64,000 nt of DNA from Candidatus Dojkabacteria bacterium (GTDB lineage Bacteria > Patescibacteriota > Dojkabacteria > B142 > WJKM01): NCBI GenBank assembly GCA_014729085.1, contig WJKM01000016.1:36598-100597 (forward strand). Reading direction: 5' to 3'. Each line of letters opens with the position of its first letter. Within the stretch, counting starts at the first letter, position 1. This document shows positions 30,795 to 54,713 of the stretch, in pieces. A model generated the notes under the pieces. It saw nothing but the letters and a program-made list of their open reading frames with translations, ran no database searches and was not told the DNA's origin. Both the position numbers and the translations under genes were made by a program.

Positions 30795-30865
30795 TCGGGG
30801 ATCGTCTAATGGTAGGACAACGGCCTCTGAAGCCGTTAATCTTAGTTCGAATCTAAGTCCCCGAA
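30795..30865 (+). tRNA. tRNA-Gln (anticodon CUG)
   Basis: The cloverleaf has acceptor TCGGGGA/TCCCCGA, D-stem GTCT/GGAC, anticodon stem ACGGC/GCCGT with loop CTCTGAA, and T-arm CTTAG-TTCGAAT-CTAAG. CCA is not encoded. Confidence 0.8.
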
Positions 30866-50556: not shown

Positions 50557-51189
50557 TTATTTCAAAACATCAATATCTCCAGTTTTTTTATCTATGTGAA
50601 TTTGAAATTCATATTTTAGGACAAAGCATTCATTTGTACATAGTTCATGCTCAGCTTGATAAGATGCTTTATAGATATTTTGATTCTCTATTTCATTAGA
50701 AAGGCAGATCGTTGCTCCTAGATGTTGATATGTTTGGATTACTCCGCTTCTAATTAAGAATTCAGAAACTTCTCGAGGAGTGAGTTCTTTGAATTCGAGT
50801 TCCTTGTAAGTTCCAATTCTTGTTTTCTCCATTTTGTCGCCTGTTACATTTGTGACTTTGAGTTTTTCAAAATAGTTAAAATTTATATATACTTCGTTCT
50901 CATTAAATGTTTTTATAAATAATAAAGGTCCTTTGTTCAAAGTTTTATTATAAGGTTTGTCAAGTGAAGAAGTTTTTATCCCTAGTTGAGAAACGGAGTC
51001 TCTTACTTCTCCTTTTTTTATAAAAGAGACGCTTTTATTTGTTACTTCATAAGTTTCTATACAGTCATTAAACCAATTTTGATCCTTTTGCATTGATCTG
51101 AAGATTACGAAACCAGCTACTCCAGATATGGTTAAGCACATTAGAAGTAAGAAAATTATTATGAAAACTAAGAATTTATTTTTTTTCAT
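50557..51189 (-). CDS. hypothetical membrane-anchored protein
   Basis: The 210-aa product has an N-terminal TM segment. Confidence 0.4.
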   Translation of the reverse strand: MKKNKFLVFIIIFLLLMCLTISGVAGFVIFRSMQKDQNWFNDCIETYEVTNKSVSFIKKGEVRDSVSQLGIKTSSLDKPYNKTLNKGPLLFIKTFNENEVYINFNYFEKLKVTNVTGDKMEKTRIGTYKELEFKELTPREVSEFLIRSGVIQTYQHLGATICLSNEIENQNIYKASYQAEHELCTNECFVLKYEFQIHIDKKTGDIDVLK

Positions 51190-51725
51190 ATTTAATTCTA
51201 TTTAGATCCTAATTTTATTTCTAAGAACATCAATTCTAAATATTATAACACCAATTTTAAAAATAGCAGATATTAATACTATAGATTTTTATATTTATTT
51301 CTAATCTAACTCTTTTATTGTATTTAATTTTTGGTGAATAATTATTAATATTGAATTTATTTGTTGCAACCTTTGGGTTTTAAGTATTTATATTGCTTGG
51401 CAGGATAATTGGTAGATTGTAGAAATAATGTTGATTAGCTTTATATTTAATAGTTATAATAATTAAAATTCACCTAAAATATCTTGCCAAAAAAAGAAAG
51501 ATCTCCCAGATTCAATAACAAGCAATTTACCTCAGCATGCTTCAGAAATATGAAAGGAGTCGTTTAATAGTGTTTGGGATGAGTATAAGGATTATGGAGA
51601 TATAAAATGAAATGATGAGAGGGAAACAACAGCAGTGAAAATTGCTTGGAGTATAGTAAAGAGAGAGTTTAAAAAGGTTGATGCATTCTAGATTCACATT
51701 TCGTTGCACTTACGTTCATCAAGAA

Positions 51726-51797
51726 AGCGAGCAACGGGAATCGAACCCGTATCCTCAGTTTGGAAAACTGATATAATAGCCGTTATACTATGCTCGC
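51726..51797 (-). tRNA. tRNA-Gly (anticodon UCC)
   Basis: On the minus strand the acceptor is GCGAGCA/TGCTCGC, the anticodon stem is TCAGT/ACTGA with loop TTTCCAA, the T-arm is ACGGG-TTCGATT-CCCGT, and U73 is the discriminator. Confidence 0.75.
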
Positions 51798-51904
51798 GTG
51801 TTTTCTTGTTAAAATACGTCAAATATTATACTTAGATTAACACAAATTCTCAAGAATTTGATACAATTATTAAGCAAATTTGAAAATATAATAGAAATTA
51901 TTTA

Positions 51905-51924
51905 CGGAGCGTAGTTCAGTTGGC
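51905..51924 (+). other. orphan 5' fragment of tRNA-Pro (nt 1-20), continued after the tandem repeats by TAGAACGCAC at 52081..52090 (nt 21-30)
   Basis: The first 30 nt of the intact tRNA-Pro at 52342 are reproduced exactly, split by the repeat insertion. Confidence 0.7.
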
Positions 51925-52080
51925 CTGCCCGACTGAGGTGAGTAGTTTAATAATAAATAATGTCGTTCAGGCGGGCCTGCCCGACTGAGGTGAGTAGTTT
52001 AATAATAAATAATGTCGTTCAGGCGGGCCTGCCCGACTGAGGTGAGTAATTCAATAATAAATAATGTCGTTCAGGCGGGC
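51925..52080 (+). repeat. three tandem 52-bp units, each with ~10-bp terminal inverted repeats (CTGCCCGACTG ... CAGGCGGGC)
   Basis: The period is exactly 52 bp. Units 1 and 2 are identical and unit 3 differs at 3 positions. The GC-rich ends can pair as hairpins across the junctions. Confidence 0.8.
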
Positions 52081-52100
52081 TAGAACGCACAAGAAGTTAT

Positions 52101-52364
52101 ATGTATTATGTATACTTATTGATAAATAAGAAAAAGAGTTACAAATACGTTGGTATTACTAAAGATATTAAGAAAAGATTAAGAGATCATAACCAAGGAA
52201 AGACCAGATCTACAAAACCATATAGACCATTTGATAAAATAATAATTTTAGATAAATTAGAAAGTCGAAAAGAAGCAAGAGAAAGAGAGAAATATTTTAA
52301 GTCTGCAACAGGAAGAAAGAAAAGAGAATTAATATTAAATACGGAGCGTAGTTCAGTTGGCTAG
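52101..52364 (+). CDS. small GIY-YIG nuclease-family protein (YhbQ/UPF0213-like)
   Basis: MYYVYLLINKKKSYKYVGITKDIKKRLRDHNQG has the GIY-YIG core with Arg and Glu downstream. The 3' end and stop codon (TAG) lie inside the 5' end of tRNA-Pro. Confidence 0.65.
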   Translation: MYYVYLLINKKKSYKYVGITKDIKKRLRDHNQGKTRSTKPYRPFDKIIILDKLESRKEAREREKYFKSATGRKKRELILNTERSSVG

Positions 52365-52415
52365 AACGCACGGTTTGGGACCGTGAGGTCATCGGTTCAA
52401 GTCCGATCGCTCCGA
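52342..52415 (+). tRNA. tRNA-Pro (anticodon UGG)
   Basis: The acceptor is CGGAGCG/CGCTCCG (a C1:G72 pair) and the D-arm is GTTC-AGTTGGCTA-GAAC. The anticodon arm is CACGG-TTTGGGA-CCGTG and the T-arm is ATCGG-TTCAAGT-CCGAT. A73 is the discriminator. Confidence 0.85.
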
Positions 52416-52571
52416 CTTTTGTCTTTAAAATTCCCAAAACCCTATCCACTGCAAGGTGTATTTTTAATATTTGTCTCCCTCCAACGAATCACTCACCCAA
52501 CAAAATTTCCTATGTATATATATGATTTATCACCGTTTACAGTACTATGTGCGTGAAAATAAGTCATAAAA

Positions 52572-52775
52572 ATGTTAAGATCAAGTATCCATAAATTGAT
52601 ATCAAATTACGAAAAAATGAGCATAGAAAATATTGGCTATAATATAAAGAACATACGTATAGAAAAGGGATTGACTCAGGAGGATTTAGCAAGAAAAGCA
52701 GATATTCCGTTGTCTACGATAAGTAAGATTGAAAGTGGGGTGTTCAGGATTGTAATAATTATTTATGCTCTTTAA
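52572..52775 (+). CDS. small HTH-XRE family regulator
   Basis: IRIEKGLTQEDLARKADIPLSTISKIESG is a Cro/C1-type HTH. The true start may be the internal MSIEN at 52617. Confidence 0.55.
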   Translation: MLRSSIHKLISNYEKMSIENIGYNIKNIRIEKGLTQEDLARKADIPLSTISKIESGVFRIVIIIYAL

Positions 52776-52829
52776 ATGAATAGTAAAAAATGATTACAGT
52801 AAAAGTTAGAGATAAATCTAATAGTTGAC

Positions 52830-54713
52830 TTGAAAAGTATATATATTAAATTAATCTGTAAAGAAATTATACAAAAAATGGAGATGTTTAAAGAAATCAA
52901 AAATAGTCTTTTTAGAAATGGTAATAAGTTAGAAGATAACGAATCCTTTTCAATCAAAAAGGCTACAATTGGGAGTAAGGATATAAAGCTATCACCGAAC
53001 TCTATTGTGATTATTACAGGAGAGAATGGTGCAGGAAAGACTACATTATTAAACGAAATAAGTCGAAGTATCAAAACTAAGATTGAAGGAAAAATACTTA
53101 CATCCGTAGAATTAAATGACGTAAAACCATCGAATCTTGAGACCTATTTTTCACATAGGTTTTCTAGTAGATATTCTTCTGATTGGGGGGAATTCTGGGT
53201 ATATAAAGGAGGAGCGATTGCAAAAAAGGATATTGAAGCCTATTCTAACAATCCCTCAGATAAATATCTGACCACTGTAATAGAAGATACCAGTATAGAA
53301 AAAAATTTTAGTATTCAAGATAAAAATGTGCAAGATATAATTGAAAATTTTAAAGTTGAGTTTTTAGATACCACTAGTCGTTTAGAAATAACCCTCCCAA
53401 AAGATCGGTATGATATGAATAGTAATGAAACCTCTGAACACATTCATATATTACAAAAAGATAAAGAATTACTTGAGAATGTATCAGAAGCAATGAGGAA
53501 AACTTTCGGGAAAGGTATAGTTATTAATCAAGGTGGATCAAAGAAAGTATGGTTTCATTACGGTGAAATTACATCAAAGAATATTTCACCCATAAGTTCA
53601 GATTACCTAACTAAATTAAATAAACTTCCTTTATTACATCAACAAGGAGATGGTATCAAAGCTTTCATGGGAATTCTTTTATCTCTTTATTGTGGTAAAA
53701 CCCCATATTTATTTATAGATGAGCCAGATTTGTTTCTTCATCCCCCACAAGCAAGGCAACTTGGAGAATTGGTTGCTACAAGTGCATCATCGGAGAATAA
53801 AAATAGACAAATATTCCTAGCTACTCATTCAAAAGATTTTATTGAAGGGCTTATTAACACAGGTAGTAATGTGACTCTTGTCCGCCTTGGAGAAAAAAAC
53901 TCAAAAGGAGACGTTACGATTTATGAATCGAACAAATTAAAAAACATAGGGTCACGCGATTTCCTTAAATTTAGTGAATCAATAAATGGTCTCTTTTATA
54001 AAGGTATAGTATTATGCGAGGGAGGCGATGACTTAACATATTATAAATTCATCTCAAAGCTATATTACAAAGAAAAGAATCTTCCATTATCTAAAGAGCT
54101 ATTTTTTATTAATTGTGGAGGTAAAAGTGAGATTGTTAAATATGCCAATCTTTTAAGAGAGTTAGACATTAATTTCTCAATAATATTTGATATTGATATA
54201 CTTCGAAGTAAAGATTTACTAAAAAAACTAAGGAATTTATATATAGAATTTCCTTCAACTAAGGAAATAAATAAAACAGTCGCTGAACTAGAAAAGAAAG
54301 CATATGAAAAAATTAATAAAACACTAAACTTTGATTCACTAAAAAAGCTTGTTAAAAAATTTCATGATTCAATAGACCAAGAAAAGATGCCAGATAAGAA
54401 AGATGTCGAAGATTTTAATAAATTTATAGGAAACAAACGAAAATGGAAAGTTATAAAAGGATCAGGTAGTACAATTTTAACAGGCCACTCGATTACCGAT
54501 TGGCAAAAACTTATTGAAAATTTCAAGAAATTAGGTATTTTTATAGTACCAGTTGGAGAATTGGAATCTTGGGATAAAAAAGCTGGTAGTAAAAATAGTT
54601 CTAATTGGATTGAAAATGCTATTGATGGGAAAGATGAAGAATTTCTCGAAAAAAATAAAGAGCTAAATAAATTCATAAAGTACTTATTCCAATTTCATGA
54701 GATAGTGGAATAA
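52830..54713 (+). CDS. OLD-family nuclease (N-terminal ABC-type ATPase + C-terminal TOPRIM)
   Basis: Walker A is TGENGAGKTT, Walker B is LFIDEPDLFLHP and the H-loop is LATHS. The C-terminal TOPRIM has VLCEGGDD followed by FDIDIL acidic motifs. Confidence 0.65.
   Translation: MKSIYIKLICKEIIQKMEMFKEIKNSLFRNGNKLEDNESFSIKKATIGSKDIKLSPNSIVIITGENGAGKTTLLNEISRSIKTKIEGKILTSVELNDVKPSNLETYFSHRFSSRYSSDWGEFWVYKGGAIAKKDIEAYSNNPSDKYLTTVIEDTSIEKNFSIQDKNVQDIIENFKVEFLDTTSRLEITLPKDRYDMNSNETSEHIHILQKDKELLENVSEAMRKTFGKGIVINQGGSKKVWFHYGEITSKNISPISSDYLTKLNKLPLLHQQGDGIKAFMGILLSLYCGKTPYLFIDEPDLFLHPPQARQLGELVATSASSENKNRQIFLATHSKDFIEGLINTGSNVTLVRLGEKNSKGDVTIYESNKLKNIGSRDFLKFSESINGLFYKGIVLCEGGDDLTYYKFISKLYYKEKNLPLSKELFFINCGGKSEIVKYANLLRELDINFSIIFDIDILRSKDLLKKLRNLYIEFPSTKEINKTVAELEKKAYEKINKTLNFDSLKKLVKKFHDSIDQEKMPDKKDVEDFNKFIGNKRKWKVIKGSGSTILTGHSITDWQKLIENFKKLGIFIVPVGELESWDKKAGSKNSSNWIENAIDGKDEEFLEKNKELNKFIKYLFQFHEIVE

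What the first reader, a model, noticed from the sequence alone, without database searches (positions are those of the whole stretch)
51726..52415. tRNA-Pro region with a duplicated 5' tRNA fragment, three 52-bp hairpin repeats and a GIY-YIG gene that ends inside the tRNA
Directly seen in the sequence:
- The first 30 nt of tRNA-Pro (CGGAGCGTAGTTCAGTTGGCTAGAACGCAC) occur twice, once as an orphan at 51905..52090 and once as the start of the intact tRNA at 52342.
- The orphan copy is split exactly in its D-loop by three perfect-period 52-bp units, each bounded by ~10-bp inverted repeats.
- An 87-aa GIY-YIG (YhbQ-like) ORF lies between the orphan fragment and the intact tRNA. Its last 8 codons and stop (TAG) are supplied by the tRNA 5' end.
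- tRNA-Gly lies just upstream on the opposite strand.

Inference: this looks like a small GIY-YIG mobile cassette that inserts into or next to tRNA-Pro, restores the gene and leaves a 5' fragment behind, with a MITE-like hairpin element then multiplying inside the fragment. This mode of tRNA-associated mobility is poorly described.
Basis: partly seen in the sequence, partly recalled or inferred. Interest (0 to 1): 0.75.

Follow-up and report, generated by a model that had tools for sequence, protein, structure and literature searches.

The report
tRNA-linked mini GIY-YIG nuclease cassette
A tiny nuclease gene sits between a broken, hairpin-interrupted copy of the start of tRNA-Pro and the intact tRNA-Pro, and the same layout recurs beside tRNA genes in many bacterial phyla, pointing to a widespread and apparently undescribed selfish element that lives on tRNA genes without destroying them.

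Summary
The window holds a 30-nt 5' piece of tRNA-Pro, split in its D-loop by three 52-bp GC-armed hairpin units. It is followed by an 87-aa GIY-YIG ORF whose stop codon lies inside the intact tRNA-Pro(tgg).

This is not a one-off:
- In 80 genome loci with homologs, 66 of the 70 with full flanks have a same-strand tRNA within 150 bp.
- The far side of the nuclease gene carries a partial copy of that tRNA, 5' or 3'.
- That copy is almost always interrupted by a GC-rich hairpin in the D-, anticodon- or T-loop region.
- Nuclease lineages track tRNA type. The closest relative of the window's protein is also at a tRNA-Pro.
- Aequorivita species show empty, nuclease-less, single and duplicated states at one locus.
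- The window's hairpin belongs to a dispersed, mostly intergenic 27-bp palindrome family.

Best reading: a minimal free-standing homing-type nuclease cassette. It uses tRNA sequence as recombination arms and preserves the tRNA, analogous to phage T4 SegB. Hairpins either disrupt the spare target copy or are co-mobilised. Cleavage and mobility are inferred, not shown. I rate it a new variant of a known kind, of high interest.

The parts
51905..51923 (+). The two leader bases at 51903-51904 are also shared with the intact gene.
   Evidence: There is an exact 22-nt match between 51903-51924 and 52340-52361.
51924..52079 (.). Three tandem 52-bp hairpin units: CCTGCCCGACT + a 27-nt AT-rich loop + GTCGTTCAGGCGGG. 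The unit starts are 51924, 51976 and 52028. The third unit carries 2 substitutions. The block is inserted in the D-loop of the orphan copy.
   Evidence: Tandem Repeats Finder gives period 52 and 98% matches. Folding gives z-scores of -2.0 to -3.5 for single units, with two alternative registers, and -3.65 for the whole 186-nt orphan region 51905-52090. The same arms occur as 27-28-bp hairpins in more than 120 metagenome stretches and in L039 and L012.
52080..52090 (+). Orphan copy of tRNA-Pro positions 20-30. It ends in the anticodon stem, 10 nt before the nuclease start codon.
   Evidence: There is a 13-nt match between 52078-52090 and 52359-52371; the sequence was read.
52101..52364 (+). An 87-aa stand-alone GIY-YIG nuclease ORF of the UPF0213/Slx1-like branch. 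Residues 1-73 are the conserved core. The last 7 codons and the TAG stop are read from tRNA-Pro.
   Evidence: Pfam PF01541 matches at E=2e-18. All invariant residues of the family alignment are present. The closest solved structures by sequence are 1zg2 and 1ywl. The AlphaFold2 model has pLDDT 92.7, and Foldseek's top hits are UPF0213, I-TevI and Slx1. The sequence is identical to a Candidatus Dojkabacteria protein.
52342..52416 (+). Intact tRNA-Pro(tgg), the partner gene of the cassette.
   Evidence: ARAGORN and Rfam at 67.7 bits.
51798..51904 (.). Divergent intergenic region between tRNA-Gly and the orphan fragment. I presume it holds the original tRNA-Pro promoter, which would now drive fragment, nuclease and tRNA as one transcript. 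This is inference.
   Evidence: Only weak consensus matches on the + strand. A strong - strand promoter-like site for tRNA-Gly lies at 51853-51825. There is no room for a promoter between the fragment and the ATG.

Best explanation
The locus is one member of a large family of selfish cassettes that live on bacterial tRNA genes. Each cassette has three elements:
1. A minimal GIY-YIG nuclease gene, about 78 aa of catalytic domain only, placed directly next to a tRNA gene on the same strand.
2. A partial copy of that tRNA on the other side of the nuclease gene. It is the 5' part when the nuclease lies upstream, as in the window, and the 3' part when it lies downstream.
3. A GC-rich hairpin that interrupts the partial copy in or beside the D-, anticodon- or T-loop.

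Proposed mechanism (inferred):
- The nuclease breaks tRNA-gene DNA, as phage T4 SegB does at the T-loop motif.
- The break is repaired by host homologous recombination from a cassette-bearing copy.
- The cassette is bracketed by tRNA sequence on both sides, so the tRNA itself supplies the homology arms.
- The cassette can therefore enter any genome with a similar tRNA, always regenerates an intact tRNA, and can pile up in tandem.
- The hairpin belongs to a dispersed family of tiny palindromic elements. It probably destroys the nuclease site in the spare copy and/or breaks up the direct repeat that would otherwise delete the cassette. Nuclease-less fragment-plus-hairpin units behave as non-autonomous derivatives.
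- In the window the nuclease is probably transcribed from the displaced tRNA-Pro promoter and released by tRNA processing.

Shown: the anatomy, its recurrence, the tRNA-type fidelity of the nuclease lineages, and presence/absence and copy-number polymorphism.
Inferred: cleavage of tRNA DNA, recombination-based spread, and the role of the hairpin.
For: - Adjacency: 66 of 70 homolog loci with full flanks have a same-strand tRNA within 150 bp of a nuclease copy. The background is 3 tRNAs in 268 kb.
- Partial tRNA copies lie on the far side in almost all loci, 5' for upstream nucleases and 3' for downstream ones.
- Hairpins interrupt the partial copy in 58 of 83 cases by a strict pattern, against 1 of 3000 control windows. 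The same 20-mer, CCTGCCTGCCGGCAGGCAGG, recurs across phyla.
- In 27 of 38 upstream-type loci the duplicated segment begins at tRNA position 1, so homology is limited to the tRNA itself.
- The nuclease tree splits by tRNA type (Leu versus Arg/Ala, and so on) across phyla. The nearest relative of the window's protein (57% identity) is the same layout at tRNA-Pro(ggg), and another relative sits at tRNA-Glu.
- At the Aequorivita yqeY-tRNA-Arg locus, A. nionensis is empty, two species have nuclease-less units, and A. sinensis has one or two exact 471-bp units.
- Tandem arrays hold divergent nuclease copies, and remnants of older copies lie upstream of fragments.
- The catalytic residues are invariant and the fold is confident.
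- The family is large: 5,816 clusters at E<=1e-10.
- Precedent: SegB is a GIY-YIG homing endonuclease in a tRNA cluster. It recognises GGTTCRANTCC inside tRNA genes (PMC2330249). It also drives recombination-dependent tandem amplification of the segB-tRNA segment (PMC13096335).
- In downstream-type loci the hairpin sits exactly at G|GTTCGA.
Against: - No biochemical evidence exists for this family. A 78-aa domain without a DNA-binding module may not be sequence-specific.
- The intact tRNA next to the nuclease keeps any tRNA-internal target, so self-cleavage is unexplained.
- In A. sinensis the fresh fragment and nuclease lie distal to the tRNA and the decayed fragment lies proximal. This is the opposite of what simple re-entry at the intact tRNA predicts.
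- Fragment-plus-hairpin units form without a nuclease gene in cis.
- About 90% of copies of the window's hairpin type lie outside tRNA contexts. The hairpin may therefore have its own biology.
- The tRNA-type fidelity could partly reflect old vertical association.
- The window's own locus has no relatives for an empty-site test.
Confidence: 0.55

Rival explanations
1. REP/RAYT-like system. The small GIY-YIG protein is the mobilising nuclease of the GC hairpin elements, which are the real mobile units and insert into DNA hairpin loops. tRNA genes are hit because their D-, anticodon- and T-arms form such loops. Only hits accompanied by a partial duplication survive, and the nuclease gene simply resides at such sites.
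For: - The window's hairpin type is dispersed and mostly intergenic: 16% of copies lie in open frames of at least 600 nt, against 68% for random positions.
- Copies are often nested in other palindromes, in tandem, or flanked by stems: 15% have stems of at least 6 bp, against 3.4% for controls.
- Insertions are exact, with no target duplication.
- Fragment-plus-hairpin units exist without a nuclease in cis.
- In nuclease-bearing genomes, hairpins are about 2000-fold denser at nuclease loci than elsewhere.
- The closest structural relatives include Slx1, a structure-specific nuclease.
Against: - A hydrolytic GIY-YIG nuclease cannot by itself join DNA.
- This reading does not explain why nuclease lineages track tRNA type.
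- It does not explain why the nuclease gene abuts tRNA position 1.
- Hairpin type does not strictly follow nuclease clade.
- Genome-level co-occurrence of hairpins and nuclease genes was not testable here.
Confidence: 0.22
2. Host-serving function. The nuclease is a domesticated factor co-transcribed with the tRNA, for example in repair or maintenance of highly transcribed tRNA genes or in RNA processing. The fragment and hairpin would then be a leader or trailer that sets expression or transcript stability.
For: - The ORF is embedded in the tRNA transcription unit. The fragment abuts the start codon and the stop lies inside the tRNA.
- The catalytic residues are conserved over thousands of clusters.
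- A prokaryotic Slx1-like domain is known fused to a TrmH-like tRNA methyltransferase (PMC1564403).
Against: - Presence/absence and copy-number polymorphism occurs within a genus and within a species.
- Decayed copies and remnants are common.
- Tandem arrays hold divergent copies.
- The hairpin occurs in both orientations and at variable positions.
- Many tRNA genes in the same genomes lack the cassette, for example tRNA-Gln and tRNA-Gly in the window.
Confidence: 0.08
3. Passive debris. The fragment is a scar of an integrase-type island, or of a random tandem duplication at tRNA-Pro. The hairpins and the nuclease gene are unrelated passengers.
For: tRNA genes are classical integration sites. 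An OLD-family defence gene and an HTH gene lie just downstream of tRNA-Pro.
Against: - The duplicated part is the 5' 30 nt, not the 3' end, and the 3' end is unique in the window.
- Only about 250 bp lie between the repeats, with no recombinase.
- The same three-part layout recurs in more than 80 independent loci across phyla.
Confidence: 0.03

Closest known systems
Free-standing GIY-YIG homing endonucleases of T-even phages, above all SegB in the T4/T6 tRNA gene cluster ('intronless homing')
   Same: - A GIY-YIG nuclease gene sits among or next to tRNA genes.
- SegB recognises a conserved tRNA motif (GGTTCRANTCC, the T-loop) inside tRNA genes and is inherited by break repair (PMC2330249).
- It drives recombination-dependent tandem amplification of the nuclease-plus-tRNA segment (PMC13096335). 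Tandem arrays and copy-number polymorphism are seen here too.
   Different: - SegB is a phage protein of about 220 aa with a C-terminal DNA-binding part. Here there is a 73-78-aa catalytic core only, and it is chromosomal: only 3 hits in viral contigs, all at contig ends.
- The papers read here do not describe a partial tRNA copy or an interrupting hairpin for SegB loci.
- By sequence the window's protein is nearer to UPF0213/Slx1 than to Seg or I-TevI.
UPF0213 / YhbQ-type stand-alone GIY-YIG proteins and eukaryotic Slx1
   Same: These are the closest solved structures by sequence: 1zg2 at E=1e-9 and 1ywl at 2e-8, then SLX1. Both are minimal stand-alone domains, as described for prokaryotic Slx1-like proteins (PMC1564403).
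   Different: No tRNA linkage, fragments or hairpins are mentioned for that group in PMC1564403. Slx1 has a RING domain and the partner Slx4, and cuts branched DNA.
Integrase-type genomic islands and prophages at tRNA genes
   Same: The element is bracketed by a direct repeat of part of the tRNA, and the tRNA stays intact.
   Different: Those elements duplicate the 3' end, carry a tyrosine or serine recombinase and are kilobases long. Here either the 5' or the 3' part is duplicated, there is no recombinase, and about 250-470 bp lie between the repeats.
REP elements with RAYT transposases (REPINs), and insertion sequences that target REP hairpin loops (own knowledge, not checked in the library)
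   Same: Both involve short GC-rich palindromes dispersed in intergenic DNA, sometimes nested or in tandem, and linked to one small nuclease gene that is itself flanked by a palindrome.
   Different: RAYTs are HUH/Y1 enzymes, not GIY-YIG. REPs are not tied to tRNA fragments. The palindromes here are 20-28 bp, and their variants conserve two stems offset by 4 nt.

Membership tests
GIY-YIG nuclease superfamily (PF01541) | Profile match above the curated cut-off | tested here: met
   66.9 bits against a cut-off of 22.6, E=2e-18, covering residues 1-74.
GIY-YIG nuclease superfamily (PF01541) | Catalytic residues: the Tyr of GIY, the Tyr of YIG, and the Arg and Glu | tested here: met
   Y5, Y16, G18, R26, H30 and E63 are invariant in the 16-sequence alignment, and all are present in the window's protein.
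GIY-YIG nuclease superfamily (PF01541) | Three-stranded sheet flanked by helices (the fold) | tested here: met
   The AlphaFold2 model has pLDDT 92.7, with strands at 2-9, 14-20 and 46-53. Foldseek's top hits are UPF0213 1zg2, I-TevI 1ln0, Slx1 and UvrC, at probabilities up to 0.99; the E-values are weak for so short a chain.
UPF0213/YhbQ - Slx1 branch | Closest to UPF0213/Slx1 by sequence, and a stand-alone minimal domain | tested here: met
   1zg2 at E=1e-9, 1ywl at 2e-8, SLX1 at 3e-5, I-TevI only at 3e-3. The protein is 87 aa with no other domain.
Free-standing homing endonuclease (Seg-like, intronless homing) | Nuclease gene outside any intron or intein, beside a conserved gene that could be its target | tested here: met
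   66 of 70 loci have a same-strand tRNA within 150 bp. In the window the ORF overlaps the tRNA.
Free-standing homing endonuclease (Seg-like, intronless homing) | Presence/absence polymorphism at orthologous loci | tested here: met
   In Aequorivita the locus is empty (L240), holds nuclease-less units (L238, L239), or holds one or two nuclease units (L202, L203). This could not be tested for the window's own locus.
Free-standing homing endonuclease (Seg-like, intronless homing) | Site-specific cleavage of the allele that lacks the gene, and biased inheritance | not testable with these tools
   This needs purified protein and crosses.
Free-standing homing endonuclease (Seg-like, intronless homing) | A separate DNA-binding domain joined to the catalytic domain, as in I-TevI and Seg proteins | tested here: not met
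   Only residues 1-73 are conserved. The tail is read-through into the tRNA. Typical relatives are 76-83 aa.
Integrase-type tRNA-targeting island | Tyrosine or serine recombinase gene, and duplication of the tRNA 3' end | tested here: not met
   There is no other ORF between the repeats. The 3' 22 nt of tRNA-Pro is unique in the window.
REP/RAYT (REPIN) system | HUH/Y1 transposase gene flanked by the palindromes | tested here: not met
   The associated gene is GIY-YIG, and the palindrome lies on one side only.
REP/RAYT (REPIN) system | Dispersed, mainly intergenic GC-rich palindromes | tested here: met
16% of copies lie in long open frames, against 68% for random positions. About 10% lie in a tRNA context.
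MITE | Terminal inverted repeats plus a target-site duplication | tested here: not met
   The insertions are exact, with no duplicated target bases. The units are 20-52 bp, well below the usual MITE size.
CRISPR array | Repeats separated by unique spacers | tested here: not met
   The three 52-bp units abut head to tail with no spacers.

The most novel reading that the evidence does not exclude
The minimal GIY-YIG protein and the GC hairpins form a previously unrecognised two-part mobile system. The nuclease recognises DNA hairpin or cruciform structures, both the hairpin element and the arms of tRNA genes. This would drive copying of the 20-52-bp hairpins into hairpin loops genome-wide and the recombination-based spread of its own gene on portable tRNA homology arms. 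That would make it a new class of bacterial mobile element with autonomous (nuclease-bearing) and non-autonomous (fragment-plus-hairpin, or hairpin-only) members in many phyla.
Probability: 0.2. Interest if true: 0.9.

Novelty: new variant of a known kind. Interest (0 to 1): 0.78.

Why it matters
- **Reach.** tRNA genes are among the most conserved sequences in biology. A cassette that carries its own tRNA-derived recombination arms could cross species and phylum boundaries while never costing the host its tRNA.
- **Explanatory value.** If confirmed, this would explain thousands of unannotated 'GIY-YIG nuclease family protein' genes, 5,816 clusters at 50% identity. It would also explain the tRNA pseudo-fragments and GC palindromes beside bacterial tRNA genes, and the frequent assembly breaks there.
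- **Link to known biology.** It extends SegB-type intronless homing from phages to bacterial chromosomes, including reduced-genome Patescibacteria.
- **Possible applications.** It offers a very small nuclease of about 78 aa, possibly structure- or tRNA-gene-specific, as an enzymological and tool-building lead.
- **Open puzzle.** The two-register design of the hairpin is unexplained and can be tested directly.

Tried and rejected
- **Empty-site comparison for the window's own locus.** The adjacent 210-aa protein has no homolog but itself. The exact nuclease protein is not indexed on any contig. This route is not possible.
- **Rfam.** Nothing but the two tRNAs reaches significance in 51000-53000, so the hairpins match no curated RNA family.
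- **Other copies in the window.** There is no other copy of the hairpin, the fragment or the nuclease in the 64-kb window. tRNA-Gln at 30795 carries no cassette.
- **Phage vector idea.** Only 3 nuclease hits and 1 hairpin hit were found in viral contigs, and the nuclease hits lie at contig ends. I rejected phages as the main vehicle.
- **Single long-stem model for the 20-mer hairpin.** It shows no compensatory changes and scores below the shuffles. I rejected it in favour of two offset stems.
- **Hairpin type strictly co-evolving with nuclease clade.** This is not upheld. Nucleases near the window-type hairpin fall in several clades.
- **Hairpin always in hairpin loops.** This is only a tendency: 15% against 3.4%.
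- **Literature.** Nine searches for a prior description of tRNA-linked small GIY-YIG genes or of the palindrome found none. The library lacks most subscription journals, so prior description cannot be excluded.
- **Integrase island, CRISPR and MITE readings.** Each fails a defining feature, as set out in the membership tests.
Full report
**1. The observation**

- ARAGORN and Rfam find tRNA-Gly(tcc) at 51726-51797 on the minus strand and tRNA-Pro(tgg) at 52342-52416 on the plus strand.
- The first 20 nt of tRNA-Pro occur exactly twice in the window, at 51905 and 52342, against none expected. The next 10 nt follow at 52081-52090.
- Between the two pieces lie three head-to-tail 52-bp units, 98% identical and without indels.
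- In the register shared with relatives, each unit reads CCTGCCCGACT, a 27-nt AT-rich loop, then GTCGTTCAGGCGGG. The block occupies 51924-52079, after G19 of the D-loop. The register is ambiguous by 3 nt.
- The units fold better than shuffles, in two alternative pairings.
- The ORF at 52101-52364 is a GIY-YIG domain at E=2e-18. It overlaps the tRNA by 23 nt, so 7 codons and the TAG stop come from the tRNA.
- The protein is identical to one annotated from a Candidatus Dojkabacteria bacterium. The window has 32% G+C.

**2. The locus belongs to a large family**

- Homologs are typically 76-83 aa, and only residues 1-73 of the window's protein are conserved. The C-terminal tail is therefore read-through.
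- In 66 of the 70 loci with full flanks, a tRNA on the same strand lies within 150 bp of a nuclease copy. The flanks beyond 1 kb hold 3 tRNAs in 268 kb.
- Of the four exceptions, two have a tRNA within 261 bp. One (L014) has tRNA pieces on both sides of the nuclease, the downstream one nearly complete and hairpin-interrupted. Only L075 has no tRNA or fragment.
- There are two layouts. In the 'upstream' layout, as in the window, the order is 5' tRNA fragment, nuclease, intact tRNA. In the 'downstream' layout it is intact tRNA, terminator, nuclease, then 3' tRNA fragment with the same terminator.
- The ORF often ends on a stop codon inside the tRNA, and the fragment abuts the start codon. The nuclease gene is therefore embedded in the tRNA transcription unit.
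- The profile finds 5,816 clusters at 50% identity with E<=1e-10.

**3. The hairpin is a constant part of the layout**

- The partial tRNA copy, and never the intact gene, is interrupted by a GC-rich palindrome.
- The commonest is the 20-mer CCTGCCTGCCGGCAGGCAGG, found unchanged in Bacteroidota, Patescibacteria, Omnitrophota and others.
- Flavobacteriia often carry 32-40-bp CCCGCCCG...CGGGCGGG forms.
- The window's type (CCTGCCCGACT...GTCRTTCAGGCGGG) recurs in L039, where two units stand in tandem, and in L012.
- A strict pattern finds a hairpin on the fragment side of 58 of 83 nuclease copies, against 1 of 3000 control windows. Most of the remainder carry variant hairpins by eye.
- The insertions are exact, with no target duplication. 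They sit in the D-loop region in 5' fragments, at G|GTTCGA before the T-loop in 3' fragments, and sometimes in the anticodon stem-loop.
- Both orientations occur.
- Variants of the 20-mer conserve two 6-bp stems offset by 4 nt. Each shows 7 cells with changes on both sides, reached by 0 of 500 shuffles. The single long stem shows none. The window's unit has the same two registers. The data set is small and holds some reverse-complement pairs, so I treat this as a lead.

**4. The hairpin also has a life of its own**

The usual form is 27-28 bp.
- After removing the hairpin, only 11 of 125 copies have tRNA-like flanks.
- Copies are mostly intergenic: 16% lie in open frames of at least 600 nt, against 68% for random positions.
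- Many copies are nested inside other palindromes, stand in tandem, or are flanked by short stems. 15% have stems of at least 6 bp, against 3.4% for controls.
- The window's 52-bp unit is this hairpin with an enlarged AT-rich loop, and tandem copies are seen elsewhere.
Even so, tRNA fragments remain greatly over-represented as hosts.

**5. Evidence for mobility and target fidelity**

- A neighbour-joining tree of the nucleases splits by tRNA type. One large clade lies at tRNA-Leu genes of any anticodon in several phyla, and another at tRNA-Arg/Ala.
- The closest relative of the window's protein (57% identity, L215, next to recA) has the same layout at tRNA-Pro(ggg). There a 20-mer hairpin sits at position 29/30 and the stop lies inside the tRNA. 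Another relative sits at tRNA-Glu.
- In 27 of 38 upstream-type loci the duplicated segment starts at tRNA position 1. In 9-11 it runs into the 3' end of an older nuclease copy (examples).
- Arrays contain both identical and divergent copies.

The orthologous Aequorivita locus, yqeY followed by tRNA-Arg(tcg), shows four states:

| Species / locus | State |
|---|---|
| A. nionensis (L240) | No insertion |
| A. sp. KMM 9714 (L239) | One decayed fragment-plus-hairpin unit, no nuclease |
| A. sediminis (L238) | Two fresh fragment-plus-hairpin units, no nuclease |
| A. sinensis (L202, L203) | One nuclease-bearing unit, or two exact 471-bp units |

Short-read contigs often end inside the fragment.

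**6. How it most likely works**

- The protein keeps every catalytic residue and folds confidently as a GIY-YIG domain. Its closest solved relatives are UPF0213 proteins and Slx1.
- The nearest functional precedent is SegB of phage T4/T6, a GIY-YIG homing endonuclease encoded in a tRNA cluster.
  - SegB recognises the T-loop motif GGTTCRANTCC inside tRNA genes and is inherited by break repair (PMC2330249).
  - It also drives recombination-dependent tandem amplification of the segB-tRNA segment (PMC13096335).
- I therefore propose that this family is a chromosomal, minimal counterpart. The steps are:
  1. The nuclease breaks tRNA-gene DNA.
  2. Recombination with a cassette-bearing copy repairs the break.
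  3. Because the cassette is bracketed by tRNA sequence, the tRNA supplies both homology arms and is always restored.
  4. Repeated events or unequal exchange build arrays.
- The hairpin would disable the spare target copy, or split the direct repeat that would otherwise delete the cassette. As a hairpin it can loop out during strand pairing.
- All of these steps are inferred.
- Four points remain open:
  - how the intact tRNA escapes cleavage;
  - why the fresh unit lies distal in A. sinensis;
  - how nuclease-less units form;
  - what the two-register design is for.

**7. Rivals**

- A REP/RAYT-like reading explains the dispersed copies and the nuclease-less units: the nuclease mobilises the hairpins, which target hairpin loops. 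It does not explain the tRNA-type fidelity or the exact abutment to tRNA position 1.
- A host-serving role is hard to reconcile with the polymorphism, the decay and the arrays.
- Integrase scars, CRISPR and classical MITEs each fail a defining feature, as set out in the membership tests.

**8. Novelty**

- Nine literature searches found no description of tRNA-linked small GIY-YIG genes, of the tRNA-fragment layout or of the palindrome.
- The 2006 survey of the superfamily lists stand-alone prokaryotic Slx1-like domains without any such context.
- The library misses most subscription journals, so prior description cannot be excluded.
- I rate it a new variant of a known kind, the free-standing homing endonuclease. 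The new features are the target-preserving partial duplication, the palindromic interruption, the non-autonomous units and the minimal enzyme.

Noticed in passing
window 52572-54713: Immediately downstream of tRNA-Pro lie a short XRE-type HTH ORF (67 aa, possibly truncated) and a 627-aa OLD-family ATPase-TOPRIM protein. PADLOC matches the latter to Old at 1.6e-20, and also to AriA and GajA-like models. This is likely a defence gene or island beside the tRNA. No tRNA 3' repeat was found in the window to mark its boundary.
   Followed up: partly
alignment A4 (20-mer hairpins from L001-L080); window 51924-51975: Hairpin variants conserve two 6-bp stems offset by 4 nt, not one long stem, and the window's 52-bp unit shows the same two registers. 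I know of no mechanism that requires this.
   Followed up: partly
L158 4741-6814: Five tandem copies, with a period of about 450 bp, of a more distant GIY-YIG gene. Each is followed by a sequence that translates as PQLSWCRAS. The array lies 1.6 kb from a copy of the window-type hairpin.
   Followed up: no
L063 2063-2420; L034 2331-2616: tRNA-Val and tRNA-Gly genes are flanked by their own 5' and 3' fragments. These are interrupted by other, unrelated-looking hairpins, with no nuclease gene between them. The fragment-plus-hairpin phenomenon is broader than the nuclease family sampled here.
   Followed up: no
L006 2687-2860; L010 2439-2900: Tandem arrays of leader plus 5' half-tRNA plus hairpin, without a nuclease, lie upstream of an intact tRNA that has a nuclease gene on its other side.
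   Followed up: partly
P0029, P0032 and many entries: Many database gene calls for this family carry 20-60 extra N-terminal residues (for example MVDLPAGRQG, GSSPTRGTK) that match translation of a GC hairpin (P0029) or of tRNA sequence (P0032). These start sites look mis-annotated.
   Followed up: no
L220-L227, L233-L235 (contig ends at locus position 2328): Short-read assemblies of Aequorivita break repeatedly at the same base, inside the tRNA fragment or hairpin. These cassettes are a systematic cause of contig ends, and the number of 52-bp units in the window's MAG contig may be uncertain for the same reason.
   Followed up: no
L117 420-1000: A nearly full-length tRNA-Arg(cct) copy, interrupted only by a hairpin in the D-loop, lies downstream of the intact gene. 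A separate 5' fragment and a nuclease gene lie on the other side of that gene. Here the hairpin is in the opposite orientation relative to the tRNA.
   Followed up: partly
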